The notes below the pieces were generated by a model, which was given only the letters and a program-made list of their open reading frames with translations, had not been told where the DNA came from and did no database searches. From Heterodontus francisci (taxonomy: Eukaryota): a stretch of 64,000 nucleotides of DNA. Each line of letters begins with the position of its first letter. The stretch's first letter is position 1. This document shows positions 33,503 to 63,559 of the stretch, piece by piece. The stretch is from assembly GCF_036365525.1 (NCBI RefSeq), contig NC_090395.1, forward strand, positions 65,621,326-65,685,325. The letters run 5' to 3'. The translations under genes were made by a program, and so were the position numbers.

Positions 33503-33778
33503 CTGGACTCAGAAACTCAATGAAATTGATTACATTTGCTGATGACACCAAACTGGGAACAGCAGTGGAATTGGAGGTAAAAACTCAGAAGTTACAGGAA
33601 GAGTTGGATAAAATTAGCTTCTGGTCAGTTCATGGCAGATGCTATTCAATGAAAATGAAATGCACAGTAAGATGGAACAATGAGCAACACATATACCACA
33701 TTAATGGTTTTCCGAACGAATAACGTTAGCATACAATGCTATTTCGGATTCCTGTGGAGTATCAAGCGATGGAATCTC

Positions 33779-34042
33779 TCAATTATTCTTTGGGGGCTGG
33801 CTTTGAATATTGATATTACTGTAGATGACATTGTCCTCATTGTTAACAGAACGCCTTGTCACATCACTGCTATGTGCTGCTGACTTCTTTTGAAACTGCA
33901 CTACTGCATATGTAATTCCGTTTTCATCATTATTCAACTGGGTAGCTCCCTCACTGTGTGTTTCTGCTGAACCACTTTGAATATGTCTTCGAATGTGGTT
34001 TACACTTTCATATGGAATACTCATTTCCACTGCTACCAATTG
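33779..34042 (-). CDS. Gene C terminal exon: cytoplasmic tail with three ITIMs
   Basis: ttttag|CAA TTG GTA...AAT TGA; phase 0; motifs IPYESV, ITYAVV, VIYSNI. Confidence 0.9.
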   Translation of the reverse strand, partial: QLVAVEMSIPYESVNHIRRHIQSGSAETHSEGATQLNNDENGITYAVVQFQKKSAAHSSDVTRRSVNNEDNVIYSNINIQSQPPKNN

Positions 34043-34635
34043 CTAAAATAAAAAAAATAAAAGATCCAATTTATTTCCAATTAGCTTGAATGGTGATTTG
34101 TGCTGTTATGAGGAGAAATCTATTTCTAGATTATTACAAATAAGTTTACAAAGTATTGCAAAGTTTTACAAGTCTTCTACAGCACAGAAATAAGCCAAAT
34201 GGTCGGTATTTATGCTCCACACAAGTCTGCTCCCATCCCTCTTCATTTAACTTGATCAATAATCCTTCCATCCTTTCTCCCTCATGTGCTTATCTAGCTT
34301 CCCTTTGAATACATTTATGGTTTTCACCATTTGAACATTCTGACCAGTCTCTGGGTAAAGATATTTCTCCTGAATTCCCTATTGCAGTTATTAGTGACTA
34401 TTTAGACACAAAGATAGGTAGGAAAGTATGTTGTGAAGAGGACATAAGCACACCGATATAGATAGGTTGAGTGAGTTGGCAAAAATCTGGCAGATGGAGT
34501 ATAATGTGGGAAAATGTGAAGTTGTTCACCTTGGCAGGAAGAATTAAAAAGCAGAGTATTACTTAAACAGAGAACGACTGCAGAATTCCAAAGTGCAGAG
34601 GGATCTAGGTGTTCTCGTGCATGAGTCACAAAACA

Positions 34636-35790
34636 TTCTTTTTTGGCCTCCTTGTCTCGAGAGACAATGGGTAAGTGCCTGGAGGTGGTCAGTGGTTTGT
34701 GAAACAGCGCCTGGAGTGGCTATAAAGGCCAATTCTAGAGTGACAGACTCTTCCACAGGTGCTGCAGATAAAATTGGTTGTCAGGGCTGTTACACAGTTG
34801 GCTCTCCCCTTGCGCTTCTGTCTTTTTTCCTGCCAACTGCTAAGTCTCTTCGACTCACCACACTTAAGCCCCGCCTTTATGGCTGCCCACCAGCTCTGGC
34901 AATCACTGGCAACTGACTCCCACGACTGTGATCAATGTCACAGGACTTGATGTCACGTTTGCAGACATCTTTAAAGCGGAGACAAGGATGGCCGGTGGGT
35001 CTGATACCAGTGATGAGCTCACTGTACAATGTGTCCTTGGGGATCCTGCCATCTTCCATGCGGCTCACATGGCCAAGCTTTCTCAAGCGCCGCTCCCTCA
35101 GTAGGGTGTATATGCTGGGGATGTTGGCCGCCTCGAGGACTTCTGTGTTGGAGATACGGTCCTGCCACCTGATGCCAAGGATTCTCCAGAGGCAGCGAAG
35201 ATGGAATGCATTGAGACGTCGCTGTTGACTGACATACGTTGTCCAGGCCTCGCTGCCATAGAGCAAGGTACTGAGGACACAGGCTTGATATACTCGGACT
35301 TTTGTGTTCCGTGTCAGTGCGCCATTTTCCCACATCCTCTCTTGGCCAGTCTGGACATAGCAGTGGAAGCCTTTCCCATGCGCTTGCTGATTTCTGCATC
35401 GAGAGACAGGTTGCTGTTGATAGTTGAGCCTAGGTAGGTGAATTCTTGAACCACTTCCAGAGCGTGGTCGCCGATATTGATGGATGGAGCATTTCTGATG
35501 TCCTGTCCCATAATGTTCATTTTCTTGAGGCTGATGGTTAGGCCAAATTCGTTGCAGGCAGCCGCAATCCTGTCGATGAGTCTCTGCAGACACTCTTCAG
35601 TGTGAGATGTTAATGCAGCATCGTCAGCAAAGAGGAGTTCCCTGGTGAGGACTTTCCATACTTTGGTCTTCGCTCTTAGATGGGCAAGGTTGAACAACCT
35701 GTCACCTGATCTTGTGTGGAGGAAAATTCCTTCTTCTGAGGACTTGAACACATGTGAGAGCAGCAGGGAGAGGAAGATCCCAAACAGTGT
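34636..35790 (-). mobile_element. RTE-clade LINE, 5'-truncated (left arm)
   Basis: LLFADDAAL, FTYLGSTI, STLLYGSEAW, LGHVSRMEDGRIPK; 3' end points left. Confidence 0.9.
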
Positions 35791-35794
35791 AGAT

Positions 35795-36728
35795 GCGAGA
35801 ACATCTCCATCAGCCTCAAGAAAACGAACATCATGGACAGGACATCAGAAATGCTCCATCCATCAATATCGGCGACCACGCTCTGGAAGTGCTTCAAGAG
35901 TTCACCTACTTAGGCTCAACTATCACCAATAACCTGTCTCTCGATGCAGAAATCAACAAGCGCATGGGAAAGGCTTCCACTGGTATGCCCAGACTGGCCA
36001 AGAGAGTGTGGGAAAATGGCGCACTGACACGGAACACAAAAGTCCGAGTGTATCAAGCCTGTGTCCTCAGTACCTTGTTCTACAGAAGCCGAGGCCTGGA
36101 CAACGTATGTCAGCCAAGAGTGACGTCTCAATTCATTCCATCTTCGCTGCCTCCGGAGAATCCTTGGCATCAGGTGGCAGGACCGTATCTCCAACACAGA
36201 AGTGCTCGAGGTGGCCAATATCCACAGCTTATACACCCTATGGAGTCAGCGGCGCTTGAGATGGCTTGGCCATGTGAGCCGCAAGGAAGATGGCAGGATC
36301 CCCAAAGACACATTGTACAGCGAGCTCGCCACTGGTATCAGACCCACCGGCCATCCATGTCTCCGCTTTAAAGACGTCTGTAAACGCGACATGATGTCCT
36401 GTGACATTGATCACAAGTCGTGGGAGTCAGTTTCCAGCGATCGCCAGAGCTGGCGGGCAGCCATAAAGGTGGGGCTTAAGTGTGGCGAGTCGAAGAGACT
36501 TAGCAGTTGGCAGGAAAAAAGACAGAAGTGTAAGGGGAGAGCCAACTGTGTAACAGCCCCGACAACCAATTTTTCCTGCAGCACCTGTGGAAGAGTCTGT
36601 CACTGTAGAATTGGCCTTTATAGCCACTCCAGGCGCTGCTCCACAAACGACTGACCACCTCTGGGCGCTTACCCATTGTCTCCTGAGACAAGGAGGCCAA
36701 AGAAGAAGAAGAAGAAGAAGAAGAAAAA
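35795..36728 (+). mobile_element. RTE-clade LINE, 5'-truncated (right arm) with (GAA)n tail
   Basis: RRLRWLGHV..RIPKDTLYSEL..CSTCGRVCHCRIGLYSHSRRC; (GAA)8 tail at ~36701-36725. Confidence 0.9.
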
Positions 36729-37253
36729 TAAATCAGGTCAAACTTTCTGCACTCAATAGAGTTGAGGAAAATATTACTGGGAATGTGCATTGATAAATAG
36801 ATTTAAGAGACAATTAGATGTATTTTGGAGAGTGGGAAAGTGGGTAGATAAGGTCATGCTCTGATAACACAACAGATGAGCTGGTTGGGCCTGACGACCA
36901 TTTCAAGTTCCTAAAAGGTTTTTTGCTGTTTTTGTGTTAGTACAATTAACATTTCTAACAGTAGAGCCAAGGCCAGCCTCCCTTTGTGTCCATCAGTAAT
37001 GATATTAAAAACTGTAGTCAATCTAAGGAGTAGTTCAGTCAAATAATAGATGCATTTAAGGGGAAGCTAGAAGGAGAATGGAACAGAAGGATATGTTGAT
37101 AGGGTTAGAGGAATGGGGCTGGGAGGAGGCTTGTGTGAACCATCAACACCAGTATGGACCAGTTGGGCTGAATGGCCCATTTCTGTGCTCCAAATTCTAT
37201 ATAGTCCAGACTTGTAAATTTCCGAACAGAGAAATCATACATAATCTCCTTAC

Positions 37254-37306
37254 CTGAGCATTATTAAGAGTGTTGTCTCTTCCATGACATGTAATGTCGT
37301 TTGTAT
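37254..37306 (-). CDS. Gene C first cytoplasmic exon
   Basis: tttttcag|AT ACA AAC...GCT CAG|gtaagg; 53 nt, phase 1 to 0; (D)TNDITCHGRDNTLNNAQ; exactly bridges the TM and ITIM exon phases. Confidence 0.8.
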
Positions 37307-37429
37307 CTGAAAAATTACAATATTACTGTTGACAAAGCTATATCGAGAATGCTTATTATGTTTAAAATGTCCAAACTGAGCATGGGTTGCAATTTGCACT
37401 GCCTCACATTGATCTATATTCATTGGAAG

Positions 37430-37990
37430 GAAGATGTTATGTTACCTTTAATTACAAAGGGATTAGAGTATAAGAGTAAAGAAGTCTTACTACAATTTTA
37501 CATGATATTGGTGAGGCCACACCTGGAGTACTGTGTACAGTTTTGATCTCCTTACCTAAAGAAGGATGTACTAGCCCAAGGTTCATTCAACTGTTCCTGG
37601 GATAAGAGGATTGTTCAATGAGGACATGTTGAATAGACTAGGCCTGTATTCCATGGAGTTTAGAAGATTCTTAAGGGGCTTGACAGGGTAGATGCTGAGA
37701 AAATGTTTCCCTGGCTGGGGAATCCAGAACATGGAGTCACAATCTCAGGACTGAGGTGAAGTGAAATTTCTTCACTGGAAAGGTTGTGAATCTTTGCAAT
37801 TCTCTAATGCAGAGAGCTGTGGATGCTCAGTCATTGAGTTGATTCAAGACAGAGAACAATAGATTTTGGGTACTAAGGGAATTAAGGGATATGGGGATGG
37901 TGCAGGAAGGTGGAGTTGCCGTGGAGAATATTGAATGGTGGAGCAGGCTCGAAGGGTCAAACAGTCTATTCCTGCTCTTATGTTCTTAAG
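37430..37990 (+). mobile_element. CR1 3' fragment
   Basis: KGLEYKSKEVLLQFYMILVRPHLEYCVQF through to the 3' tail. Confidence 0.8.
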
Positions 37991-39903
37991 TTCTGATCTG
38001 AACCTCATCTGCATTGCACTCAGGAATCCCTACATAGAGCGAAAAACTGCTCTGGTTATTATGCATAACATTAAGAAGGAATGAAGGTAGCTTTCGTCCT
38101 CGCCATCTGACAAAGCAGATCACCTTCCTGTTGTACAACCTATCAGATTTTCATCCTCTAGATTTCTACAAGGTGCTCTGTCAGATTATCGTCCAAGACG
38201 TGAAGATGAAAATTACCCCCATCCCACCACTGTGTGTTTAGCGTTTTGTGACGCAAAGACTGATCAATTCTAAGCTGAAAATGAGATCCTGTTCTTTTGT
38301 GTCATTCGTGGGAGGCCAAGGAATTCATCACAAGGAGAAATAAGTAGAGGCGGGTGAAACTAGTTTATTTTACAGCAAGTGGGAGGAGGTGGCGTACTGA
38401 TAATGTCACTAGGCTAGCAACCCAGAGCCTCAGGCTAATGCTGTGGGGACATGAATTCAAATCCTACCACGGCAGATGGTGAAATTTGAATTCAATTAAT
38501 AAATCTGGAATTAAAAGCTAGTCTAATGGTGACCATGAAACCATTGCTGATTGTTGTAAAAACCCATCTGGTTCACTAATTCCTTTAGGGAAGGAAATCT
38601 GCCGTCCTTACCTGGTCTGGCCTACATGTGACTCCAGACCCACAGCAAGGTGGTTGACTCTTAAATGCCCTCTGAAATAGCCTAGCAAGCCATTCAGTTG
38701 TATCAAACTGCTACAAACTTCTAAGAAAGAAAACAAACCTGGAAATACCACCTGGCATTGACATGGGCACCGGAAATGACAACGGCAAACCCAACCCTAT
38801 CTACCCTGCAAAGTCCTCCTCACTAACATCTGGAGAGCTGATCCACAGATTAGTCAAGCAACAGGCTGACATAGTCATACTCACAGAAGCATATCTTTTT
38901 GACAAGGTCCCTGACACCACCATCACCATCCCAGAGATGGCAGCACAGTGATATAAAATTGAGAGGGAGTTAGTTGCCCTGGGAGTTCTCAACATTGACT
39001 CTGGACCCATGAAGTCTCATGGCATCAGGTCAGATATGGGCAAGAGATCCTCCTGCTGATTACCACCGACTGCCCCCTGCCTCGGCTGATGAGTCAGTAC
39101 TCCTCCATGTTGAACACCATTGGAAGAAGCACTGAGGGTGGCAAGGGCGAAGAATGTACTCTAGGTGGGGGACTTCAATGTCCATCACCAAGAGTGGCTC
39201 GGTAGCACCACTACTGCCTGAGCTGGCCGAATCCTAAAGGACATAGTTGCCAGACTGCGTCTGTGGCAGGTGGTGAGGGAACCAACCAGAGGGAAAAACC
39301 TACTTGACTGCGTCCTCTCCAATCTACCTGTCGCAGATTCATCTGTCCATATAGTATTGGTAGGAGTGACCACCGCACAGTTCTTGTGGGGACAAAGTCC
39401 CAACTTCACATTGAGGGTACTCACCATCGTGTTGTGTGGCACTACCACTGTGCTAAATGGGATAGATTTCAAACAGATCTAGCAATTCAAAACTAGGCAT
39501 TCATGAGGCACTGTGGCCCATCAGTAGCAGCAGAATTATATTGAACACAATCTGTATTCTCATGGCTTGGCATATCCCGCTCTCTATCATTCCCATCAAG
39601 CTGGGGGACCAACCCAGTTCACTGAAGAGTGCAGGGGGGGTGCATGCCAGGAGCAGGACCAGGCACAACTAAAAATGAGGTGTCAGCTTGGTGAAGTGAC
39701 AACCCAGGACTACTTGCATGCCAAACAGCGGAAGCAGCATGCAATAGGCAGGGCCAAGCGATTACACAACCAACAGATTAGATCTAAACTCTGCAGTCCT
39801 GCCACATCCAATCGTGAATAACAAAGAACAAAGAACAAAGATAATTACAGCACAGGAACAGGCCCTTCGGCCCTCCAAGCCTGCGCCGATCCAGATCCTC
39901 TCT

Positions 39904-42858
39904 CTAAACATGTCGCCTATTTTCTAAGGTTCTGTATCTCTTTTCTTCCTGCCCATTCATGTATCTGTCTAGATACATCTTAAAAGACTCCATCGTGCCC
40001 GCATTTACCACCTCCGCTGGCAATGCGTTCCAGGTGCCCACCACCCTCTGCGTAAAGAACTTTCCACGCATATCCCCCCTAAACTTTTCCCCTTTCACTT
40101 TGAACTCGTGTCCTCTAGTAATTGAAACCCCCACTCTGGGAAAAAGCCTCTTGCTATCCACCCTGTCTATACCTCTCATGATTTTGTACACCTCAATCAG
40201 GTCCCCCCTCAACCTCCGTCTTTCTAATGAAAATAATCCTAATCTACTCAACCTCTCCTCATAGCTAGCGCCCTCCATACCAGGCAACATCCTGGTGAAC
40301 CTCCTCTGCACCCTCTCCAAAGCATCCACATCCTTTTGATAATGTGGCGACCAGAACTGTACGCAGTATTCCAAATGTGGCCGAACCAAAGTCCTATACA
40401 ACTGTAACATGACCTGCCAACTCTTGTACTCAATGCCCCGTCCGATGAAGGAAAGCATGCCGTATGCCTTCTTGACCACTCTATTTACCTGCGTTGCCAC
40501 CTTCAGGGAACAGTGGACCTGAACACCCAAATCTCTCTGGACATCAATTTTCCCCAGGACTTTTCCATTTACTGTATAGTTCACTCTTGAATTGGATCTT
40601 CCAAAATGCATCACCTCGCATTTACCCTGATTGAACTCCATCTGCCATTTCTCTGCCCAACTCTCCAATCTATCTATATTCTGCTGTATTCTCTGACAGT
40701 CCCCTTCACTATCTGCTACTCCACCAATCTTAGTGTCGTCTGCAAACTTGCTAATCAGTCCACCTATACTTTCCTCCAAATCATTAATGTATATCACAAA
40801 CAACAGTGGTCCCAGCACGGATCCCTGTGGAACACCACTGGTCACACGTCTCCATTTTGAGAAACTCCCTTCGACTGCTACTCTCTGTCTCCTGTTGCCC
40901 AGCCAGTTCTTTATCCATCTCGCTAGTACACCTTGGACCCCAAGCGCCTTCACTTTCTCCATCAGCCTGCCATGGGGAACCATATCAAACGCCTTACTGA
41001 AGTCCATGTATATGACATCGACAGCCCTTCCCTCATCAATCAACTTTGTCACTTCCTCAAAGAATTCTATTAAGTTGGTAAGACATGACCTTCCCTGCAC
41101 AAAACCATGTTGCCTATCACTGATGAGCCCACTTTCTTCCAAATGGGAATAGATCCTATCCCTCAGTATCTTCTCCAGCAGCTTCCCTACCACTGACGTC
41201 AGGCTCACTGGTCTATAATTACCTGGATTATCCCTGCTACCCTTCTTAAACAAGGGGACAACATTAGCAATTCTCCAGTCCTCCGGGACCTCACCCGTGT
41301 TTAAGGATGCTGCAAAGATATCTGTTAAGGCCCCAGCTATTTCCTCTCTTGCTTCCCTCAGTAACCTGGGATAGATCCCATCCGGACCTGGGGACTTGTC
41401 CACCTTAATGCCCTTTAGAATACCCAACACTTCCTCCCTCCTTATGCCGACTTGACCTAGAGTAATCAAACATCTGTTCCTAACCTCAACATCCGTCATG
41501 TCCCTCTCCTCGGTGAATACCGATGCAAAGTACTCGTTTAGAATCTCACCCATTTTCTCTGAGTCCAAGCATAACATTCCTCCTTTGTCCTTCAGTGGGC
41601 CAATCCTTTCTCTAGTTACCCTCTTTCTCCTTATATATGAATAAAAGGCTTTGGGATTTTCCTTAACCCTGTTTGCTAAAGATATTTCATGACCCCTTTT
41701 AGCCCTCTTAATTCCTCGTTTCAGATTGGTCCTACATTCCCGATATTCTTTCAAAGCTTCGTCTTTCATCAGCCGCCTAGACCTTATGTATGCTTCCTTT
41801 TTCCTCTTAGCTAGTCTCACAATTTCACCTGTCATCCATGGTTCCCTAATCTTGCCATTTCTATCCCTCATTTTCACAGGAACATGTCTCTCCTGCACGC
41901 TAATCAACCTCTCTTTAAAAGCCTCCCACATATCACATGTGGATTTACCTTCAAACAGCTGCTCCCAATCTACATTTCCCAGCTCCTGCCGAATTTTGGT
42001 ATAGTTGGCCTTCCCCCAATTTAGCACTCTTCCTTTAGGACCACTCTCGTCTTTGTCCATGAGTATTTTAAAGCTTACGGAATTGTGATCACTATTCCCA
42101 AAGTAGTCCCCTACTGAAACTTCAACAACCTGGCCGGGCTCATTCCCCAACACCAGGTCCAGTATGGCCCCTTCCCGAGTTGGACTATTTACATACTGCT
42201 CCAGAAAACCCTCCTGGATGCTCCTTACAAATTCTGCTCCATCTAGACCTCTAACACTAAGCGAATCCCAGTCAATGTTGGGAAAATTAAAATCTCCTAT
42301 CACCACCACCCTGTTGCTCCTACATCTTTCCATAATCTGTTTACATATTTGTACCTCTATCTCACGCTCGCTGTTGGGAGGCCTGTAGTGCAGCCCCAAC
42401 ATTGTTACCGCACCCTTCCTATTTCTGAGTTCTGTCCATATTGCCTCACTGCTCGAGTCCTCCATAGTGCCCTCCTTCAGCACAGCTGTGATATCCTCTT
42501 TCACCAGTAATGCAACTCCTCCACCCCTTTTACCTCCCTCTCTATCCCGCCTGAAGCATCGATATCCTGGGATATTTAGTTGCCAATCATGCCCTTCCCT
42601 CAACCAAGTCTCAGTAATAGCAATAACATCATACTCCCAGGTACTAATCCAAGCCCTAAGTTCATCTGCCTTACCTACTACACTTCTTGCATTAAAACAA
42701 ATGCACCTCAGACCACCAGTCCCTTTATATTCATCATCTGCTCCCTGCCTGCTCTTCCCCTTAGTCACACTGACTTCATTATCTAGTTCCTTACAGGCTT
42801 TAGTTACTACCTCCTTACTGTCAACTGACCTCAATTTGTTCCCATCCCCCTGCCACAT
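39904..42858 (-). CDS. CR1 ORF2: APE endonuclease + reverse transcriptase (984 aa)
   Basis: NARS, ITETW, GDFN, SDH; PGPDG, YRPVSL, DFSKAFD, GVPQGSVLGP, FADD; no stops. Confidence 0.97.
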   Translation of the reverse strand: MWQGDGNKLRSVDSKEVVTKACKELDNEVSVTKGKSRQGADDEYKGTGGLRCICFNARSVVGKADELRAWISTWEYDVIAITETWLREGHDWQLNIPGYRCFRRDREGGKRGGGVALLVKEDITAVLKEGTMEDSSSEAIWTELRNRKGAVTMLGLHYRPPNSEREIEVQICKQIMERCRSNRVVVIGDFNFPNIDWDSLSVRGLDGAEFVRSIQEGFLEQYVNSPTREGAILDLVLGNEPGQVVEVSVGDYFGNSDHNSVSFKILMDKDESGPKGRVLNWGKANYTKIRQELGNVDWEQLFEGKSTCDMWEAFKERLISVQERHVPVKMRDRNGKIREPWMTGEIVRLAKRKKEAYIRSRRLMKDEALKEYRECRTNLKRGIKRAKRGHEISLANRVKENPKAFYSYIRRKRVTRERIGPLKDKGGMLCLDSEKMGEILNEYFASVFTEERDMTDVEVRNRCLITLGQVGIRREEVLGILKGIKVDKSPGPDGIYPRLLREAREEIAGALTDIFAASLNTGEVPEDWRIANVVPLFKKGSRDNPGNYRPVSLTSVVGKLLEKILRDRIYSHLEESGLISDRQHGFVQGRSCLTNLIEFFEEVTKLIDEGRAVDVIYMDFSKAFDMVPHGRLMEKVKALGVQGVLARWIKNWLGNRRQRVAVEGSFSKWRRVTSGVPQGSVLGPLLFVIYINDLEESIGGLISKFADDTKIGGVADSEGDCQRIQQNIDRLESWAEKWQMEFNQGKCEVMHFGRSNSRVNYTVNGKVLGKIDVQRDLGVQVHCSLKVATQVNRVVKKAYGMLSFIGRGIEYKSWQVMLQLYRTLVRPHLEYCVQFWSPHYQKDVDALERVQRRFTRMLPGMEGASYEERLSRLGLFSLERRRLRGDLIEVYKIMRGIDRVDSKRLFPRVGVSITRGHEFKVKGEKFRGDMRGKFFTQRVVGTWNALPAEVVNAGTMESFKMYLDRYMNGQEEKRYRTLENRRHV

Positions 42859-43805
42859 TAGTTTAAACCCTCCCCAACAGCATTAGCAAAAGCACCTCCA
42901 AGGACATTGGTTCCAGTCCGGCCCAGGTGTAGACCGTCCAATTTGTAATAGTCCCACCTCCCCCAGAACCGGTCCCAATGTCCCAAAAATCTGAACCCCT
43001 CCTTCCTGCACCATCTCTCAAGCCACGCATTCATCCTGACTATTCTTTCATTTTTACTCTGACTATCACGTGGCACTGGTAGTAATCCTGAGATTACTAC
43101 CTTTGAGGTCCTACTTTTTAACTTGGCTCCTAACTCCCTAAACTCTGCTTGTAGGACCTCATCCCGTTTTTTACCTATATCATTAGTGCCTATGTGCACA
43201 ATGACAACTGGCTGTTCACCCTCCCCCTTTAGAATGTTCTGCAGCCGATCTGAGACATCCCTGACCCGTGCACCTGGGAGGCAACATACCATTCGGGAGC
43301 CTCGTTTTCGACCACAGAACCGCCTATCTACTCCCCTTACAATCGAATCCCCTACGACTATAGCCCTTCCACTCTTTTTCCCGCCCTTCTGAACAGCAGA
43401 GCCAGCCACGGTGCCATGGACCTGGCTACTGCTGCCTTCCCCTGGTGAGCCATCTCCCTCAACAGTATCCAAAACGGTATACTTGTTTTGGAGGGAGATG
43501 ACCGCAGGGGACTCCTGCGCTGCCTTCCTGCTCTTTCTCTGCCTTTGGGTCACCCATTCCCTTTCTCCCTCAGCAATCCTCATCTGCGGTGTGACCAATT
43601 CACTAAACGTGCTATCCACAACCTCCTCAGCATCTCGCATGCTCCAAAGTGAGTCCATCCGCAGCTCGAGAGCCGTCATGCGGTCTAACAAGAGCTGCAG
43701 TTGGACACACTTCCTGCACGTGAAGGAGTCAGGGACATCAGCCATGTCCCTGAGCTCCCACATTGAGCAAGAGGAGCATGACACGGGTCTGAGATCTCCT
43801 GCCAT
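42858..43805 (-). CDS. CR1 ORF1: zinc finger/leucine zipper + SGNH esterase (~315 aa)
   Basis: AAAATGG start; CSSC..CRKC; GDSIV, HIGTND, DGLH; the stop overlaps the ORF2 start as TAATG. Confidence 0.93.
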   Translation of the reverse strand: MAGDLRPVSCSSCSMWELRDMADVPDSFTCRKCVQLQLLLDRMTALELRMDSLWSMRDAEEVVDSTFSELVTPQMRIAEGEREWVTQRQRKSRKAAQESPAVISLQNKYTVLDTVEGDGSPGEGSSSQVHGTVAGSAVQKGGKKSGRAIVVGDSIVRGVDRRFCGRKRGSRMVCCLPGARVRDVSDRLQNILKGEGEQPVVIVHIGTNDIGKKRDEVLQAEFRELGAKLKSRTSKVVISGLLPVPRDSQSKNERIVRMNAWLERWCRKEGFRFLGHWDRFWGRWDYYKLDGLHLGRTGTNVLGGAFANAVGEGLN

Positions 43806-43985
43806 TTTTAATCTTAAGCTTAACTTAGTTAAATGAAAAAGGAACGAAAAGTTTTTGCCAATCACAATAAAACCAGAGAAATCAAAAAAGATTTACCTTA
43901 TAAACACCCCACCGAGTCCTTTTTTTTTTTGGTTAGAGGAGGAGGGCGGGTGGGAGACACGACAAGTGTGGTGTCTCGGGTTCAG

Positions 43986-45097
43986 AAACCGCCCAAATAT
44001 ATAGTGTTTTACTTACCCAGCAGCCCCCTGGCCTCCGCCGAAAAACAAAAGGGAATTAAATTTACTTTCAAACCGACCTTCCCAGCTGCTCACTCGCTCA
44101 CACTCTGCTCCCGAAAAAGCTGCTGCAATGAAAGGAAAGTTATTTTAAACCGCCCAAATATATAGTGTTTTACTTACCCAGCAGCCCCCTGGCCTCCGCC
44201 GAAAAACAAAAGGAAATTAAATTTACTTTCAAACCGACCTTCCCAGCTGCTCACTCGCTCACACTCTGCTCCCGAAAAAGCTGCTGCAATGAAAGGAAAG
44301 TTATTTTAAACCGCCCAAATATATAGTGTTTTACTTACCCAGCAGCCCCCTGGCCTCCGCCGAAAAACAAAAGGAAATTAAATTTACTTTCAACCGACCT
44401 TCCCAGCTGCTCACTCGCTCACACTCTGCTCCCGAAAAAGCTGCTGCAATGAAAGGAAAGTTATTTTAAACCGCCCAAATATATAGTGTTTTACTTACCC
44501 AGCAGCCCCCTGGCCTCCGCCGAAAAACAAAAGGAAATTAAATTTACTTTCAACCGACCTTCCCAGCTGCTCACTCGCTCACACTCTGCTCCCGAAAAAG
44601 CTGCTGCAATGAAAGGAAAGTTATTTTAAACCGCCCAAATATATAGTGTTTTACTTACCCAGCAGCCCCCTGGCCTCCGCCGAAAAACAAAAGGAAATTA
44701 AATTTACTTTCAAACCGACCTTCCCAGCTGCTCACTCGCTCACACTCTGCTCCCGAAAAAGCTGCTGCAATGAAAGGAAAGTTATTTTAAACCGCCCAAA
44801 TATATAGTGTCTTACTTACCCAGCAGCCCCCTGGCCTCCGCCGAAAAACAAAAGGAAATTAAATTTACTTTCAAACCGACCTTCCCAGCTGCTCACTCGC
44901 TCACACTCTGCTCCCGAAAAAGCTGCTGCAATGAAAGGAAAGTTATTTTAAACCGCCCAAATATATAGGTTTTACTTACCCAGCAGCCCCCTGGCCTCCG
45001 CCGAAAAACAAAAGGAAATTAAATTTACTTTCAACCGACCTTCCCAGCTGCTCACTCGCTCACACTCTGCTCCCGAAAAAGCTGCTGCAATGAAAGG
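43986..45097 (-). repeat. Seven tandem 160-161-bp monomers in the CR1 5' UTR
   Basis: Unit starts on + at 43986, 44147, 44308, 44468, 44628, 44789 and 44950; near-identical copies. Confidence 0.97.
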
Positions 45098-48945: not shown

Positions 48946-49522
48946 CAGTGAAGCACAGCAACTGTCAGCTGTGAAACTGACTTGCGATTTTTAAAAAACT
49001 GATCAACCATCTACTGTTCCCGCTTTCTGCAACTGTCAAAACTGCTCAGCTAAACAGTAAATTAACATTATTTGTCATCTGACTCCTAATTAATTCTCTT
49101 AAAGAGAAAATATTGGTTCTGCTTTTGACTGCAACTTATTATAATTGGGTTTAATCCAAGAAATTTAGTTCTCACTAAAATTAACACTTTCCATCACAAC
49201 AGCCACATCTAAAAACTCAGTCTGACAGTTGAAAGACCAAGGCTCATCTAAATCTCCCTTCCAACAAATCACTTCCTGTCATTCACCTCCATCATTCTTT
49301 CTCATGTTGAATTTTACTTCTTGCAGAGTTCAGAGGATTATTTGCTGTTAACGTAGCAACAGTAACAACTTAATTATTCTTCCATGTTTAATACATCTAG
49401 ATTAGAGTTTGCAGAATATTACAATCATAGGCGTTTGGTCATTACAACAAACTAGTTCTCTTTATATTCTGCAGCAAACTATTGACATATAATGATATGA
49501 CTAAAGAAAAATAGAAACTCAC

Positions 49523-49611
49523 CCTTCTTGATTTGCTTCCGGTATGAAAGTAGATAAACAGCCAACACAAGAAGACTGGCCGCCAGCACACCGAGCATAA
49601 TGTAAGCCAGC
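49523..49611 (-). CDS. Gene C transmembrane exon
   Basis: cacag|G CTG GCT TAC...AAG AAG G|gtgagt; 89 nt, phase 2 to 1; (R)LAYIMLGVLAASLLVLAVYLLSYRKQIKK; no charged residue within the hydrophobic span. Confidence 0.9.
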
Positions 49612-49679
49612 CTGTGATACAGAGAATAGGAAAGAGTCAGCGCTGGTTCACAGTTGTTTCTTGGCTATTTATTTAAGGA

Positions 49680-50070
49680 AAGAAAATTTTGCATTTATAT
49701 AGTGCCTTTCATGGCCTCGGGATGGCCCAAAGCACTTTACAGACAATGAAGTACTTTTCAACTGTTGTATTGTAGGAAACGTGGCAGCCAATTTGCACAC
49801 AGCAAGATCCCAGAAATAGTAATGTGATAATGACCTAATAAATACTGGCCAGGTCCTTAGAGTGAACTCCCTTGCTCTTCTTCCAATATTTCCATGGGAT
49901 CTGTTAAATCCAATTGAGACAGCAGATGTGGTTTAATGTCTCATCTGAAAGATGGCACCTCTGACAGCACAGCACTTCCTCAGTACTGGAGTGTCAGCCG
50001 AGACAATGTGTTCTGGAACGGGATGCAAGGTCTCAACTTTCTGGCTCAGTGAATATGCTATCAACTGAGC
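49680..50070 (-). mobile_element. Deu-domain SINE
   Basis: Reverse complement of the Deu-SINE (TTGCATTTATATAGTGCC...TCTCATCTGAAAGATGGCACC...AACTGAGC). Confidence 0.75.
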
Positions 50071-50284
50071 CATGGTTAATGTGCGGTAAGTTTCACATTT
50101 TAAAAACAGAACAAAAGAATACCTGATGACACTGAAAATAATAGAAGCAACAACGGTTTCATGCCCTACATGGATTTCATATACTGATGATCTTCATAGT
50201 CAAATTTACACAACAAAGCAGACATAGAGATATGTCCGAAAATAAAATGCATAGATTTTCAATATTTTTTACATCATTAACATT

Positions 50285-52620
50285 TATCTACAACAACAAC
50301 TTGCATTTATATAGTGCCTTTAACATAATAAATATACCAAGGTGCTTTACAAGAGCATTATCAAGCAAAATTTGACACCCAGCTACATAAGGAGATATTA
50401 GGCCAGATAACCAAAAGCCTGGTCGAAGAGGTAGGTTTTGAGGAGCATCTTAAACGAGGAAAGAAAGGTGGAGAGTCGGAGAGATTAAGGGAGGGAATTC
50501 CAGGGCTTAGGGCCCAGGCAACTGAAAACATGACCTCCAATGGTGGAACAATTAAATGGGGAATGCTCAAGATGCCAGAATTGATGAAGACCTCAGGGGG
50601 CTGTAGGGCTGGAAAAGATCACAGAGATAGAAAGGCATGGAGGGGATTTGAAATCAAGGAAGAGAATTTTGAAATTGAGGCATTGTTTAACCCGAGCCCA
50701 TGTAGGTCAGTTAGTACAGGGGAGATGGGTAAGTGGGACTTGGTGTGAGTTCGGACACGACCAGCCAAGTTTTGAATGACCTCAAATTTGCAGAGGGTAG
50801 AACTAGTTAAACCAGGCAGGAGTACATTGGAATAGTCAAGTCTAGAGGTAATAAAGGCATGGATGAGCATTTCAGCAGATAATATAAGGCAAGAGCAATG
50901 TTAAGTTAAAAGAGGTAAAAATAGGCGGTTTTAGTGATGGTGTGATTATGTGGTAGGGAGAGGGATGGAGTTTGTAGTAAGTATTGAAGACAATGTCTTC
51001 CAAGTATTTACTTGGAGGAAATTTCTGTTCATCCAGCACTGGATGCTGGCCAAGCAATCTGACAGTTTAGAGAGATGGAGGGGTCAAGAGTGGTGGAGAT
51101 GAGCTAGAGCTGTGAATCGTCAGTGTACATGTGGAAACTAATGTTGTGTTTTGGGATGATATCGTTGAGGGGCAGCACGTAGATGAGAAATAGGAGTGGT
51201 ACAATGATGAATCCTTGGGGGGGGCACCAGAAGTAATGCTGTGGGAGCAGGAAGAAAAGTCATTGCAGGTGATTCTCTGACTATGACTAGGTAGATCAGA
51301 ATGGAACCAAGTGAGTCCAGTACCACCCAGATAGATGAAGGTGGAGAGATGTTGGAGGAGTATGGTGTGGTCAACCGTGTCAATGGCTACAGACAGATCG
51401 AGAAGGATAGTGTTATGATCCTATAGTTATTTTTGGGAAGAATGCAGTGTGCCTTTAAGGCTGGAAAGGGCGTCATACTGCTTTAAGGCAGCAAACGCCA
51501 GAAACTGATTCAAAGCGTGTATTCTCGTTGCCCGGGCTACAGCCATTCAGAGAATATGGTTCAAAGAGAGCATTCTCGTTGCCCGGGATATAGCCATTCA
51601 GGACCAGAGATCAAGAAATACATGGTTACAATTTAATTTTGAACTGGCTTATAGTGGAAACAGACTGTTCTAATGCACTGAGAGACAGACAGACAGCTGT
51701 GTGTTAGCACCTGAAAGGAGTGCTCTCAGACCATTTAAACTGAAGGAAGAGAATTTAGTCTGTTTATTTATTATTCTCTCTCAAAATTCTAAAAAGCCAA
51801 AACAAAACAGAGATCTCTGATAATCTAAACTGAAGGAAGGGAAGTTAGACTGTGACAATCTTTTATCCCTCAAAAATTCTACAGCCAAATTGATTCATTA
51901 AAAAAAGTTTTTGCAAGTTGTTAATTGTTGAAATTCATTGCTGGAGAAGGAGCAACTATTTGGACTTCTGAATTAGACTACAGACTGCTCTACTGTTGAA
52001 GAATGTTTTTTTCCCCGTCAGACGGCTGCGAGGACTTCAAGCAACCTTGGACTGTTCCACATCCGGCAGGAGCGTAAATCTGCAAGGACTCTAATTTTTT
52101 TCTACTTTAAAATTTGTTTATATCTTAGTAGTGTTTAAGAATTTAGTTTTTCTAATTAAACAGTTAATTTGTCTATTTAAAGACACCTGGTTTGGTTAGC
52201 CTCATTCAGGGGGTTAATAGATGGTATGATTTGGTTGGGTCTTTCTTTAATTTGGAAAGTTTTAAAATGATATGTTAGGTGAACTGTGGAGGGATGGGAT
52301 TGAATTAACAGTGCGTTTCTCCCACCACAATCAGAATCGTATATTTTGTTTGGAGGCTTTGACTGGAGTGGTCGGTCATAACAATAGTTTATCTTTTTCA
52401 AAGTCGACTTGGTAAGAGTCACTTTGGTACTATGGTGGGAGTGGAAACCTGATTGGAAGGATTCAAACATGAAGTTCCCAGAAAGATGGGCACAGATTTG
52501 GGAGGTGACAAAATGCTCAAGGACTTTGAAGCGGAAAGGGAGATTGGAGATGGGGCAGTAGTTTGCTAGGACAATGGGATCAAGGGGTGTTTTCTTTTGA
52601 GGACGGGGTGATGACGGCAA
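50285..52620 (-). mobile_element. L2 LINE fragment, split by a solo LTR
   Basis: LDPIVLANYCPISNLPF, FQSGF..HST, LIHAFITSRLDYSN; L2-type tail. Confidence 0.8.
51411..52383 (+). mobile_element. Solo LTR
   Basis: TGTTATGA...TCATAACA termini with 4-bp TSD ATAG; 3' region similar to the LTR ending at 13089. Confidence 0.88.
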
Positions 52621-52849
52621 ACTGCATGTGCTAGAAATCTGAAAGAAAAACTGAAGTTGCTCGAAATGCACAGCAGGTCAGTCACCATATGGGGTGAACA
52701 GATGTGTTTAGGTTCAGGTGTGAACTGGAATTCTAAAGACGTGACTGCACCCAAAGCATAATATTGTCCATTTTCTCCACAGGTGTGGACTGACCTGCTG
52801 TGTGTTTCCAGCAGTCACTGTTTCTGTTTGACATCTAGTTGGTGTTTAC

Positions 52850-53750
52850 TCCTTATTACCATTGTAACTTCAAAGACCCAATTCCTTAGTGTTTACATCG
52901 GACTACAACTTCTGCTGCTTATTGCTGACAGCTCAGGCTAATAACATGAAAATGATAAGTGAATTATGCCAATTGAGTATGCACATCCCAAACGCATTGG
53001 GTGAAATTTATAGCCACGGCACATGAAATAGAGAAACCTCCTCCAAGTCCTGACTCAAAATGTCACGGCTAAAAACGAGTCCCCTGCCTTCAACATCCAA
53101 GGGGTCACTATTAACTGGAAGTTTCACTGGACCAGCCTTGCCAACATTGTCACTACAAAAGCAGGGTAGAGGCAGGGTACTCTAACCCAGTGGCTCACCC
53201 ACAATCCTTCAAAGCCTCGCCATCAGCTGCAGTGCTCAAGTCGGGAGAGTGATGGAATACTCACCTTGGATGGGTGCAGCTGTAACAGCATTCAACATTC
53301 ACCACTATTTACGCCAAAGCAGTCCACGTGGCCAGTGCCGCAACCGCTGAGCTCAATATCCATCCCTCCGCCATGGTGCACTGAAGCTGCAGGACATACT
53401 ATCTGCAGGCCACACTACAGCAATGCCCACATCCTAACCACCTATTTAGAAAAACTTGCTAACATTACTTGAAATCACTTCTTTGCCCAATGCCTTGTAC
53501 CACCCAAATGGGCAAGGCAAGCAACATCATTAGAACATCAGCTCTTCTAAGTTGCACACTATTCTGCCTTCTTAATATATAGTTGTTTTTTTACTATTGT
53601 TAGTTCAAGATCATGGAATTTTTTAACATCACTGTGGGAACATAATGAGCAGATTAAGAAGACGGCCCCGGACCACCTTCTCAGGGCAACAAGCGGTGGG
53701 CAATAAATGTGACCTTGCCAGCATTGCCCACCTCCCAGGAACAAATTTTA
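52850..53750 (+). mobile_element. Decayed 3' part of the single-ORF LINE family
   Basis: GTGATGGAATACTCACC and tail CACCTTCTCAGGGCAA..GGGCAATAAATG. Confidence 0.6.
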
Positions 53751-53863
53751 AGAAAAGAAATTTCCTGTATTTGTAGTGACCGAATTTGACCAAAGCTGCA
53801 AGATGTCTCTACCTAGTGATACCAGGAGCTGTGCAGATATATCACTGTAATTTTTCCCTTTCA

Positions 53864-54184
53864 TAGAGAGATACAGCACTGAAATAGGCCCTTTGAGTTT
53901 GTGCTGACCAACAATCACCCACTTATACTAATTCTATATACCCATATTCCCTACCACATCCCCAACATTTTCCTACTACCTACCTACACTAGGGGCAATT
54001 TACAATGGCCAACTTACCTATCAACCTGCAAGTCTTTGGCTGTGGGAGGAAACCGGAGCACCCAGCGGAAACCCACGCGGTCACAGGGAGAACTTGCAAA
54101 CTCTGCACAGGCAGTACCCAGAACCAAACCCAGGTCACTAGAGCTGTGAGGCTGCGATGCTAGCCATTGTGCACTGTGCCGCCC
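53864..54184 (-). mobile_element. V-SINE (HE1-like), full length
   Basis: tRNA head GGGCGGCACAGTG..., V-core, CR1-derived tail. Confidence 0.8.
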
Positions 54185-54517
54185 TTTCACCAGCAGAAAT
54201 GCTGGCAAGGTAAGTTTGACAAGTACATCTTATCTCACGCCATGAGATTATGTTAGTGGTGAAGTAATCATGGGGCATATTAACCATCTGATGGAGGTGC
54301 TCACTTCTTATTCCTATTTCCCACAAGAAAGAATAGCACCTTTGTTAAGAAGCTAACACAACAGCATGATGTAAACCCAGCCAACATTTCCATTCTGAAG
54401 AGCTATATTGCAAAATAATAAATGATTTTCATTTCTTATACCAAAAATGTTAAAGAACATTCAATATCTCACATGGAAGCTGTGTCAATCAAAACACAAA
54501 CAATGAGAACATTGTAC

Positions 54518-54623
54518 CTTTTAGTAAAGTTGGATCTTGAAGATTGGTTCTGATTATCAGCTGAAATTTTATTTGTACTTGTGGAACGTGTAGTTGCTGC
54601 TAATTCACAAGAATATTCAGATC
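54518..54623 (-). CDS. Gene C stalk exon (Ser/Thr-rich)
   Basis: caatag|GA TCT GAA...AAA AG|gtacaa; 106 nt, phase 1 to 2; (G)SEYSCELAATTRSTSTNKISADNQNQSSRSNFTK. Confidence 0.85.
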
Positions 54624-55516
54624 CTATTGAAACAAGGGAGTAACATTCAGATTCACCTCATTTTCACTTCTAATCAACCAAGAGAGCATCATTGACAAAT
54701 AGAAGCTCATTACTTGAGGAAAAGCCTGGTTAATATAATGGATTTGGATAATTTAATTTCTGTGTAATTTCCCCCTCTCTGGTAGCAAGGAGAGATGATG
54801 CTGACACTGGGCAGAAACCCATTTTTATTGATAAATTCTGTTTCTTTTCCATATCTGACAGTTGGTGGCATAGAGCTACAGTTGTGTCCATTAAAGGGCT
54901 TACGTTGCTGGGACCACAATCCAGATATCCCTTTTCTTTGCCCTGTGCAAATGTAAAGTTCCAATCAGGGAGCTGGCCCCTGCCACCACTGGAAAATGTT
55001 TTGCTGGGGAGCCAACACCATGATTCTGTCCTGGAAGGATGTCCTTGGTGGAAAAAGAATGTTACCTGAGCATTAAGTGCATAAAGAAATATCAGAGCAG
55101 GAATTACTGCTGTTGACATTAATGGACAAGCAGTTCATTTTCATATAGTGTCTCTCGGTTCACAGAATGTCACATGGGCACATTAAATTGTCACCTGCCA
55201 CATGACAATGGACATTTCCTGTATCTAGGGGCTGGTTTTCTGAGCTTGCTGTAGTGACAGGAAACCTCACTCACCGGCAGTGGATATCACAAAATCCAGC
55301 CAGTGACTTACTGTCGATTTAATTATAATGATCAGTGTTGCTGGCAGGAGAGACTCCCCACCTCCAGTGGGCACTCAGATAATTGGCTCAGGTGTGATTT
55401 AATTAAGTAATTTGTTTCAAAATGTAAGAAATGACCTGCATTGATACAGCACCTTTCACAACCGCAGGACATCCCAAAGCGCTTCACAGTCAATGAAGTA
55501 GTTTATTTCAGTGTAG

Positions 55517-55772
55517 TGTTACAATCAGGTGAGGAGGGTGGCAAGGCTCCCTTCTTGTCCCTCTCCTTGTTTGACAGCAACAGGGTTTATTTCTTTTAAA
55601 CAGTGAATGTGCTTACCAATTTAGTGAGTGTTTAACCCTTTTAGGTGCTATGATCATAAAAGAACCAATCGGACACATTTTCTTGAGTTTAAACAAGTGA
55701 GAGGTTAGTTTATTGTACTTAAATCAAAACCCAATCTAAGTGAAAATAATAATCTACATTTCTACTTTCTCA

Positions 55773-55809
<37 letters not shown>

Positions 55810-56608
55810 GAATCACACAGACACATAAATAGGTTACAAAGTGATGGAGAATAGATTGGTTGGATTAGCGTCCAGAACAAATAAAATAAGATAGATTCTG
55901 TGGAGTGTGGTAATTCAGTCGACTTCCAGCTAAATTCGTGGTCCTGAAGTTTCTGGTTGGTCGAAGTGCACTTACAGCTGGTCCACCTGGTTCAGGGTTT
56001 TCTTATGTAAATGTTTTTTCTCCCTGGAGTCTCTGCCTGCAGTAATGATAGGCTTGGATGTTTGCAGCCCGCAGACAGGATTCGAACTTTACAGCATTAC
56101 CTGGAGAAAGAGAGAGAGACATCCCTTTTGGGATCCTGCACTGATTAGCTCTCAAAGCTTGACTGCTGTGTCCAAAAGAAACTCCAAGTTTTCACAGAGA
56201 TGGACAGACTGTCACATGATTGTCTCAGTATATTCTTTGTGGAACTTTATTGAGATTCAAGTCTAAGAATTTCAATGTCTCTCAGGCCTTTTTGTTTCAA
56301 AGTTTCAATACCCCCTTGAGGTTTTTCTCCACTAGTGTGAATATTCCAAGATGGCTTTGAATGTCTTGCTAATGAAAGCGATATCAGGTAGTCCATTCAA
56401 TTGTTCAAGCCATTGTTCTGGATGAAAGCGTCTTTAGACATGCATCTCCACTTCAATACATTGGAATGTGAGGTATTTCAATGCAAAGTGTGGCGGCCGC
56501 CTGAGCTGCCAGTTTTTTAAAAGTTGGATGTGGGATTCCAACTTTCCTTTTGGAAGTTTAATGTAGGTTTCCAAACAATGAATTAAAATCATCATTCAGC
56601 ATAGCACA
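55517..56608. mobile_element. Solo LTR inserted in a Deu-SINE; contains (CA)n at ~55771-55807
   Basis: TG...CA termini with 4-bp TSD GTAG; the flanks rejoin into a Deu-SINE (55430-56950). Confidence 0.7.
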
Positions 56609-57029
56609 GTAGTCATGGTTGTAATATAGAGAAACCTGGGACCTAATTTGTGCACAGTAAAGTCCCCAAACAGCAATTGACCAGATAACCTGTTTTTCAG
56701 TGATGTTGGTTAATGGGTGAAATTTATTAAGACACCAGGATAACTTGCCTATTCTTCCTTGAATGGTGGCATGCAATCATTTATCTTTACCTGAAAGAAC
56801 AGGTAGGTCCTCAGATTAACATCTCATCTAGGCAAAAGCACCTCAACAGCATATGGTGGATAATGGTATCTACCTGAAATTTAGCTCTGAAGGGGAACTT
56901 GAACCCACAACCTACTAGCAGCAGAAGTCAGGGTGCTACCAACTGAGCACCTGTGACACTTACATTTCAAATGCAGTTTATAGGTGAAATTTCTACCTGA
57001 TATTCTTCCCCTCTGATAGCTAATTCTTT

Positions 57030-57407
57030 TTACTTCATGGGATGTGGGATCACTGGCATGGCCAGCATTTGATGCCCATTCCTAATTGCCCTGGGCTTGC
57101 TAGGCCATTTCAAAGAGCAGTGGGTCATGGCTGTGGGTCTGGAGTCATATGTAGGCCAGACCAAGTAAGGACAGCAGATTTCCTTCCCTAAAGGGACATT
57201 AGTGAACCAGATGGGTTTTTACAACAATCAATGGTATTTTCACGGCACCATTACTGAGACTATCTTTCAATTCCAGATTTTTTGTTAGTTAATTAAGTGA
57301 ATTTAAATTCCACCTGCTGCCATGGTGGGATTTGAACCCAGGTGCCCAGAACATTAGCCTGGGCCTCAGATTACTAGTCCAGTGACGTTACCACTGCGCC
57401 GCCATCT
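57030..57407 (-). mobile_element. tRNA-headed SINE, full length
   Basis: A box GGCGCAGTGG, B box GGTTCAAATCC, core CCATCTGGTTCACTAATGTCC, tail AGGGCAATTAGGAATGGGC. Confidence 0.8.
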
Positions 57408-58409
57408 CCCCCCTTATCATTTTTAGCATATGCAAATTTAGAGGTACTACTCTTTTTCTGACCTTTTAGATGTTCCTCAGTGAAAAGACTGATGAACAAA
57501 CTGCTTCCCGCTCTGAGGAAAATTGAACCGCTACATTCAAATAGCCTAAGATCCTCCTTTTTCAGAACCAGGGTCATTGTTTCACAGTGACTGAGTAATT
57601 CACTTTTTAGTACATGGAATTCTGAGATTTTGACTGGCAATTTGGAATGATAGAATTTTACAGCACAGAAAGAGGGAATTCAGCCCATCGCTATTGACTC
57701 TCTCAAAGAACTCCCCCCTTTGTCTCATTGCCTGTCCTTTCCCCACACCCTCCTAAATTTGCTTCTTTTCACTTCCTTTTTAAAAGTGATTATTGATTCT
57801 GATTCTGACATTCTAATTGGGAATTCTATCTCCCAACAACCAATTGTATCACCTATATTTTCCCCTTTCCTTTTGGTGATGATCTTAAATTTATGCTCTC
57901 TACTTGCTCACTCACTAGTGGAAATAGTTAGTCCCAATTTATCGTAAAAAAGACCCTAATAATTTTAAATTCCTCCACTTAACCTCTGTTCTGATGTTTC
58001 TCTCCTCATAAATAAAACCTCTCAGTGTGCTGCCAATTGCTCTCTATCCCTGACATACTTCCTAATCTAGGACACAACTGTTGGAGGTTGCACTTCTCAA
58101 TTCCATCTGCTAGAAACAGGCGTATTGGTTTATGAAGATGCAGTCAATCAAATTCCATTTTAATTTCATGGGATTACTGGATTTTCTGCAACTGTTTATG
58201 CATGTTAGCGATATTTTATGTAAAATGTCCATTTCCATGGAAAATGCAGATCAGTGGCCTTAATCATAATTGGTGAAGGACCAAATAGAATGAATTTGGC
58301 CAGTTGCAGTTTCATAGAGTGACTGAAGGAATTTATCCAGTGGCGAGATTAGATCAACATTAATTAAAAGCATTAAGTTACCATATTGTTTGTTTACAGT
58401 AACACTTAC

Positions 58410-58721
58410 CAATGCTGCTGATTTGTGTCTTATAACTGCAGCTCCTGAAGACTGACACGTTAACCATTTCACTGGATTTTTCTCCCTGATTATTTGAGGC
58501 TGTGCAGTAATATTGATGATGTTGCTGTGTGAAGGATTGACAACGTAGATCCAGTTTATTGGTGTCAGAGATCTTTGAATCTTCAGACGGGGTCTTTTCA
58601 TACCATGTGTACTGAATGGGAAAGGATCCCTGGACAGACTCACAGGAGACGGACACTGAGCCCCCGGAACATGAGAGATTTGGTGGTGATAAAAATCTAA
58701 GTACAGGAACAGACACGGATT
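58410..58721 (-). CDS. Gene C Ig C2-type (FcR-like) exon
   Basis: cgcag|AA TCC GTG...ATT G|gtaagt; 312 nt, phase 1-1, open; paralog of 5773-6096 and 19316-19639. Confidence 0.92.
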
Positions 58722-63400: not shown

Positions 63401-63480
63401 TCTCCTTAGAGAAGAGAAGGTTGAGTGAAAATTTGATAGAGGTGTTCAAAATCATGATGGATCTGGACAGAGGAGTCAGG
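60440..63480 (+). mobile_element. Decayed CR1 copies with nested fragments
   Basis: FLDQYVSSPTR, ENWRIAN, INDWD..SNDTKLG, LGLFSLEKRRL; inserts at ~61500-61725 and ~62270-62700. Confidence 0.75.
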
Positions 63481-63559
63481 GAGAAGCTCAACACTATCCA
63501 GGACAAAGCAGCCTGCTTGATTGGCACCTAATCCACCATCTTAAACAAGGTGATCCTTT

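What the first reader, a model, noticed from the sequence alone, without database searches (positions are those of the whole stretch)
33779..58721. Gene C: five exons reconstruct an intact inhibitory receptor with three ITIMs
Seen: five exons across 25 kb with canonical AG/GT sites and matching phases (1-1, 1-2, 2-1, 1-0, 0-stop) give an uninterrupted C2, Ser/Thr stalk, uncharged TM (LAYIMLGVLAASLLVLAVYLLSY), RKQIKK and a ~105-aa tail with IPYESV, ITYAVV and VIYSNI. Three of these exons are missing from the ORF track. Known: I/V/L/S-x-Y-x-x-I/V/L motifs recruit SHP-1, SHP-2 or SHIP. Inference: the functional inhibitory member of the cluster, with leader and V exons beyond 64000.
Basis: partly seen in the sequence, partly recalled or inferred. 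Interest (0 to 1): 0.7.

Follow-up and report, generated by a model that had tools for sequence, protein, structure and literature searches.

The report
Shark inhibitory immune receptor, known family
This shark gene likely encodes a 'brake' receptor on immune cells, from a family already described in skates; several of its exons are joined in likely-RNA data, but this copy has a jumping-gene insertion in its first domain and a shortened tail, so it is an ordinary new family member and not fully intact.

Summary
The five exons are real: canonical splice sites, stated phases, an open 273-aa frame and three ITIM-pattern motifs (9 of 100,000 shuffles). Contigs from two likely-RNA runs of one sample join C2-stalk-TM without mismatch. 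The gene is a modular domain immune-type receptor (MDIR): C2 68% and V 51-55% identical to skate MDIR3. Upstream of the window lie leader-V1-C2a-V2, so the ectodomain has four Ig domains; C2a-V2 is spliced. 'Intact' needs qualifying. V1 holds a young 1,508-bp LINE with a 36-bp target duplication. The stop is a TGA where a paralogue has CGA, which removes a fourth tyrosine motif. It is not the only inhibitory member: the cluster has nine MDIR loci, two more with apparently intact ITIM tails. The scan earlier found this family in other shark genomes. New member of a known kind; low interest.

The parts
33779..34042 (-). Last exon: tail with IPYESV, ITYAVV, VIYSNI; ends at TGA 33781-33779
   Evidence: 66% identical to P0082 tail
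33701..33778 (-). Former coding extension after the premature TGA: 25 codons with a fourth Tyr motif (ALYANV), now 3' UTR; the codon is CGA in the P0082 gene and CAA in two other paralogues
32380..33778 (-). Likely 3' UTR; AATAAA at 32416 and 32380
37254..37306 (-). Cytoplasmic exon 1 (53 nt, phase 1-0)
   Evidence: homologous exons in three paralogues
49523..49611 (-). Uncharged transmembrane exon plus RKQIKK
   Evidence: spliced to stalk in X1, X2
54518..54623 (-). Ser/Thr-rich stalk exon
   Evidence: spliced on both sides in X1, X2
58410..58721 (-). Membrane-proximal C2-type Ig exon (C2b), FcRL5-like
   Evidence: Pfam Ig_3 30.1 bits; FcRL5 best PDB hit; 68% to MDIR3 domain
58722..64000 (-). 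Part of the intron between C2b and the V2 exon. The rest of the gene lies beyond the window (extended coordinates; add 65,621,325 for G000:C25): V2 65123-64815 (short C-C' loop, no C-C' cysteine pair), C2a 69042-68719, V1 78236-76372 interrupted by a 1,508-bp antisense LINE at 76474-77981 with a 36-bp target duplication, leader 82421-82376
   Evidence: C2a-V2 spliced in X1 and X2; V2 model and fold search

Best explanation
Gene C is a shark MDIR-family gene (leader-V-C2-V-C2-stalk-TM-tail) whose product likely sits on leukocytes and would, once its three tail tyrosines are phosphorylated, likely recruit SHP-type phosphatases to damp signals from its arginine-TM relatives in the same cluster. 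Shown: exon structure, family membership by sequence, splicing of C2a-V2 and C2b-stalk-TM, motif conservation, and both receptor types in the cluster. Inferred: the V2-C2b and TM-tail joins, the cell type, phosphorylation, and SHP-1/SHP-2/SHP-2L binding. Ligand, by analogy with CD300/TREM V domains (recalled): lipids or other surface determinants on dying cells or microbes; V2 may have a changed ligand face because it lacks the C-C' disulfide. The assembled allele cannot make V1 (stop 118 codons in). Protein would come from an insertion-free allele (about 607 aa) or by skipping V1, which keeps the frame (500 aa). The premature TGA is in the last exon, so it should escape nonsense decay and only removes the fourth Tyr motif.
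For: Homologues: 118 hits of 253 candidates; the 117 named ones are all cartilaginous fishes and include skate MDIR3 (P0062) and MDIR5 (P0063). C2b 68%/67% to their proximal C2, V2 51-55% to MDIR3 V domains, ITYAVV identical in MDIR3. P0038 from another shark has the same V-C2-V(short loop)-C2-TM-tail layout. Spliced contigs at similar depth: C2b-stalk-TM 11.7 and 14.1, C2a-V2 15.5 and 14.3 with GT-AG ends. A 416-nt X2 record ends in the C2a-specific start with about 380 unlaid letters upstream, close to leader 46 + uninterrupted V1 321 + 13 of UTR. Tail Tyr conserved in 37, 48, 43 of 50 homologues, and 19 of 50 also lack a terminal motif by my pattern. [quoted passage not shown] Arg-type TM exons at five loci in the cluster, one of which has lost the Arg.
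Against: LINE in V1, premature TGA, loss of both C-C' cysteines in V2 (14 short-loop V domains of other sharks keep one), an extra Cys in V2's first strand, and a drifted first motif (IPYESV against the usual IVYANV) could together mean decay. The 380 upstream letters of the 416-nt record were not seen, and a 36-bp duplication longer than the assembly word could let an insertion allele assemble as if empty. All runs are one sample and their RNA status is the tool's guess. No protein record for gene C appeared. Nothing here tests phosphorylation or phosphatase binding.
Confidence: 0.72

Rival explanations
1. Gene C is a still-transcribed but decaying copy (young pseudogene) in a birth-and-death cluster, with the inhibitory role carried by the two cleaner ITIM genes.
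For: LINE in V1, CGA-to-TGA, V2 cysteine losses. Its sister locus at +100 to +119 kb is already a pseudogene. Two loci are clear pseudogenes and the leader-26.5 kb locus has two broken V modules. Paralogous C2 contigs reach depth 100-900 against 12-15 for gene C, though contig depth cannot rank genes.
Against: Seven coding exons downstream of V1 and the leader are open with canonical splice sites; precise splicing; V1 skipping keeps the frame; the 416-nt record fits an uninterrupted V1; the LINE is very young (99.7% to another copy), so one recent event explains the main lesion.
Confidence: 0.18
2. The protein is made, but its tyrosine motifs act mainly as YxxPhi trafficking signals (an endocytic or scavenging receptor) and not as phosphatase docking sites.
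For: ITIM and YxxPhi patterns overlap (established knowledge); pIgR-like V domains suggest cargo uptake; the first motif has Pro at -1.
Against: The hydrophobic -2 position is kept in all three motifs and across homologues. Tandem motifs fit tandem-SH2 phosphatases. Arg-TM short-tail partners sit in the same cluster.
Confidence: 0.07
3. It is the shark polymeric Ig receptor or an Fc receptor orthologue, as database names suggest.
For: Many homologues are auto-named 'polymeric immunoglobulin receptor-like' or 'Fc receptor-like 5'. Top PDB sequence hits are pIgR for V and FcRL5 for C2. The IL10/C1orf116 block is on the same chromosome.
Against: Alternating V-C2 layout; V2 model is closer to CD300lf (37-38% identity) than to pIgR domains (22-29%); the cluster lies about 6 Mb from the IL10-C1orf116 interval where PIGR sits in mammals (recalled).
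Confidence: 0.03

Closest known systems
MDIR3 (and MDIR2) of clearnose skate; Cannon et al. 2006, PMID 16738934 (seen only as a reference entry; content recalled); MDIR3 = P0062
   Same: Leader, CD300-like V plus FcRL-like C2 modules, neutral TM, ITIM tail with identical ITYAVV; 51-68% domain identity
   Different: Four domains (V-C2-V-C2) against five in P0062 (V-V-C2-V-C2); short-loop V2 without the C-C' disulfide; terminal Tyr motif lost; LINE in V1
MDIR5 (P0063) and Arg-TM relatives
   Same: V-C2-V-C2 ectodomain, 57-67% C2 identity
   Different: Arg in the TM and a short tail; the likely activating counterpart
CD300a / CD300f (mammalian inhibitory CD300)
   Same: V fold (Foldseek top hits, TM 0.81-0.90), ITIM tail, clustered paired receptors
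   Different: Single V domain, no C2; the CD300-locus marker NHERF maps to C26/C24, not C25
pIgR and FcRL5
   Same: Sequence likeness of V to pIgR domains and of C2 to FcRL5 domains
   Different: Neither mixes V and C2 modules this way; no Ig binding is shown

Membership tests
MDIR | Ectodomain built from repeated CD300/pIgR-like V and C2/I-type modules (feature from PMC3031540 passages and P0062/P0063; original paper recalled) | tested here: met
   L-V1-C2a-V2-C2b
MDIR | Close sequence relationship to named MDIRs over leader, Ig domains and tail | tested here: met
   C2 54-71%, V2 51-55%, tail 43% over 54 aa to MDIR3
MDIR | Multigene family with inhibitory and charged-TM forms | tested here: met
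   Nine loci: four ITIM-tail, five Arg-type TM (one has lost the Arg)
MDIR | Inhibitory form: neutral TM plus ITIMs | tested here: met
MDIR | One clade with skate MDIRs to the exclusion of CD300/pIgR/TREM | tested here: inconclusive
   Tree of 67 V domains had no outgroup and an unresolved backbone
MDIR | Expression in immune tissues | not testable with these tools
   Tissue of runs X1-X3 not on record
ITIM inhibitory receptor (function) | Phospho-Tyr dependent SHP/SHIP recruitment and inhibition | not testable with these tools
   Motifs only
CD300 | Single V domain ectodomain | tested here: not met
   Four Ig exons, two of C2 type
CD300 | Second (C-C') disulfide in the V domain | tested here: inconclusive
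   Both Cys present in V1, both absent in V2
CD300 | Linkage to NHERF1/RAB37 (recalled) | tested here: not met
   EBP50_C hits on C26 and C24 only; RPL38 uninformative; RAB37 not searched
pIgR | All-V ectodomain; gene between IL10 family and C1orf116 (recalled) | tested here: not met
   C2 domains present; IL10 59.32 Mb, SARG 58.49 Mb, cluster 65.3-65.9 Mb on C25
pIgR / FcRL | Immunoglobulin binding | not testable with these tools
   No shark Ig partner tested
FcRL | All-C2 ectodomain | tested here: not met
   Two V exons

The most novel reading that the evidence does not exclude
Two bolder readings survive. (1) The cluster sits beside a G-alpha-i gene on the chromosome that carries the IL10/RASSF/C1orf116 (pIgR) and NFYA (TREM) blocks, not the NHERF (CD300) block, and runs on into V-only CD300-like exons. 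MDIRs may therefore be the shark expansion of the ancestral V-domain receptor locus from which pIgR, TREM and TMIGD3 descend. (2) Gene C may be caught in the act of domain-number change: a young antisense LINE in V1 and a 99.6%-identical inverted copy in intron 1 flank the V1 acceptor and could force in-frame skipping, so a segregating insertion would switch a four-domain brake receptor to a three-domain one.
Probability: 0.25. Interest if true: 0.5.

Novelty: new member of a known kind. Interest (0 to 1): 0.2.

Why it matters
It adds a mapped, partly transcript-supported inhibitory member to a family described in skate in 2006 and hardly followed up: the two searches on the full family name each returned one paper. 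The nine-locus map, with paired TM types, pseudogenes and a fresh LINE hit, is a clear picture of birth-and-death evolution in a shark immune cluster. The synteny is a lead on where pIgR/TREM/CD300-type receptors came from. None of this overturns an expectation.

Tried and rejected
No listed run is on record as RNA; this is not used for or against expression, only the spliced joints are. The 0.87 word share fits a spliced transcript carrying the TGA (expected 0.85) better than one lacking it (0.77), but only about 4:1, so it is weak. The tail search found only P0082, 1 of 17 candidates, so no record for gene C itself was seen. RPL38 as a synteny marker gave 11 scattered copies. The V tree did not resolve orthology between species: the short-loop V domains of other sharks did not group with V2 with support. 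Cannon 2006 is not held, so its content is recalled and any supplements are unseen. Literature searches gave no paper on MDIR synteny in their listings; the library lacks most subscription journals, so this is not proof of absence. No earlier finding near this place. ITSM (TxYxxV/I) reading rejected: position -2 is Ile or Val in all three motifs. No complex prediction was sent.
Full report
Observation. All five exons are at the stated coordinates on the minus strand, with canonical splice sites and matching phases, and the joined frame is open for 273 residues. The tail is 105 aa after RKQIKK and holds exactly three tyrosines, each in an [ILVS]xYxx[ILV] pattern; 9 of 100,000 shuffles gave three or more. 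Of 118 homologues, 50 had a neutral TM with a long tail by my filter (33 Arg-type TM, 29 no TM found, 6 other were left out). The three Tyr columns hold Tyr in 37, 48 and 43 of those 50.

Splicing. Three runs of one sample and study hold the last exon; the tool only guesses that they are RNA. On 49400-64000, one 1073-nt contig in X1 and one 1538-nt contig in X2 run C2b-stalk-TM with no mismatch and no intron letters; X3 showed no such record among the rows listed. These contigs continue for 798 and 1263 letters past the TM. If the two tail exons follow as proposed, they would end at 33298 and 32833. Runs of repeated 16-mers, where such assemblies tend to break, start at 33298 and 32834, two of 25 runs in 32400-34057. 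So two of the four named junctions are shown and two are inferred.

What lies upstream. The window is G000:C25:65621326-65685325 in a 6.0-Gb genome; 15 of 17 C2 matches fall in one cluster on C25. I fetched 140 kb left and 260 kb right and use extended window coordinates. V2 lies at 65123-64815, C2a at 69042-68719, V1 at 78236-76372 and an MDIR-type leader at 82421-82376. The ectodomain is therefore V-C2-V-C2, as in P0038 of another shark. The V2-C2b joint was not seen: the contig stops 49 nt before the end of V2.

Lesions. (a) V1 holds a 1,508-bp, 5'-truncated non-LTR retrotransposon in antisense (76474-77981), with an open RT-like frame, a perfect 36-bp target duplication and 99.7% identity to another copy in the region; the RTE label is recalled, not tested. 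Read through, V1 stops after 118 codons; skipping V1 gives an open 500-aa product. One X2 record of 416 nt (depth 5.9) ends in the first 37 nt of C2a, a word found exactly once in 464 kb with one 1-mismatch copy, and has about 380 unlaid letters upstream. Leader 46 + uninterrupted V1 321 leaves 13 nt of UTR, which fits an insertion-free allele. I did not see those letters, and a duplication longer than the assembly word could fake an empty site. (b) The stop at 33781-33779 is CGA in the P0082 gene and CAA in two other paralogues, and the frame runs on 25 codons through ALYANV. A terminal Tyr motif was found in 31 of 50 homologous tails (two may be third motifs of shortened tails), so loss is common. 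(c) V2 has a four-residue shorter C-C' loop and lacks both loop cysteines. 14 of 254 homologous V domains share the short loop but keep one cysteine. It still models as a V-set domain (pLDDT 92.4) whose best structural matches are CD300lf, CD300f and CD300a, then pIgR.

Family. C2b finds 118 proteins; the 117 named ones are all from cartilaginous fishes and include skate MDIR3 and MDIR5. Identity to MDIR3 is 68% for C2b, 51-55% for V2 and 43% over 54 tail residues, with ITYAVV identical. PMC3031540 (passages) describes MDIRs as multigenic activating/inhibitory receptors similar to CD300, TREM, FCAR and pIgR, and cites Cannon et al. 2006, which I could not read. The V exons best match pIgR and CD300 and the C2 best matches FcRL5 in the PDB, which explains the automatic database names.

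Cluster. Nine leaders define nine MDIR loci over about 390 kb. Four have the neutral TM and ITIM tail: one at -83 to -118 kb that looks intact, gene C, a pseudogene at +135 to +158 kb, and the gene at +215 to +246 kb that encodes P0082. Five have the Arg-type TM. The pseudogene at +100 to +119 kb has V domains sister to gene C's V1 and V2 (support 99/90 and 100/98) but an activating-type TM exon, so gene C's paired partner appears to be dead. The two V-C2 sets inside the window are likely modules of one Arg-TM gene whose leader is at 26.5 kb. Seven more divergent V exons, with no C2 or leader match, lie in the next 200 kb to the left. A G-alpha-i gene starts at +291.7 kb. NFYA is at 67.73 Mb; IL10, a RASSF and C1orf116 at 58.5-59.9 Mb of C25; NHERF genes are on C26 and C24. 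The mammalian gene orders used to read this are recalled.

Mechanism. Most likely a leukocyte surface receptor whose V domains bind lipid-like or microbial surface ligands (analogy, untested) and whose tandem phospho-ITIMs engage SHP-1, SHP-2 or SHP-2L, all present in sharks (PMC12151841, passages), opposing Arg-TM relatives that would signal through an ITAM adaptor (established for such TMs, recalled). I put 0.72 on a working inhibitory receptor, 0.18 on a transcribed decaying copy, 0.07 on a trafficking role and 0.03 on a pIgR/Fc orthologue.

Verdict. It is a new member of a known family; three earlier notes of this scan reached the same family in other shark genomes (unchecked notes, seen after my own assignment). 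Interest 0.2.

Noticed in passing
window 26441-26676, 22812-23147, 19305-19640, 9300-9640, 5762-6097 (minus), continuing to about -18200: The two V-C2 sets in the window are likely modules of one three-module Arg-TM gene (leader 26.5 kb, TM -11.3 kb). The V at 23 kb has two stops; the V at 9.5 kb lacks its first Cys and shifts frame near its end.
   Followed up: partly
extended window 79595-80799 (L002): A second young copy of the same LINE in intron 1, inverted and 99.6% identical to the V1 insert; the pair flanks the V1 acceptor and could pair in the pre-mRNA.
   Followed up: no
window 39904-45097: Near-intact LINE (992-aa and 344-aa open frames, minus) in the TM-cy1 intron, headed by 6.9 copies of a 161-bp unit at 99% identity.
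   Followed up: no
window 34636-36707: Inverted pair of LINE fragments, 92% identical over 904 bp, in the last intron.
   Followed up: no
L041-L055 (G000:C25:65.28-65.43 Mb): Seven divergent CD300/pIgR-like V exons with no MDIR C2 or leader match; the receptor cluster is at least 600 kb long and its left end was not reached.
   Followed up: partly
extended window 100689-119070: Pseudogene with gene C's sister V1 and V2 but an activating-type TM that has lost its Arg: the probable dead paired partner.
   Followed up: partly
L037:7698-7814; extended window 302262-303200: G-alpha-i first exon next to the cluster; a long minus-strand frame in its intron resembles a syntrophin PDZ retrocopy (likeness recalled).
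   Followed up: partly
P0075: A ray gene model fuses a TRIM-like part (by its name and Pfam list) with C2-V-C2-Arg TM; probably a merged annotation.
   Followed up: no
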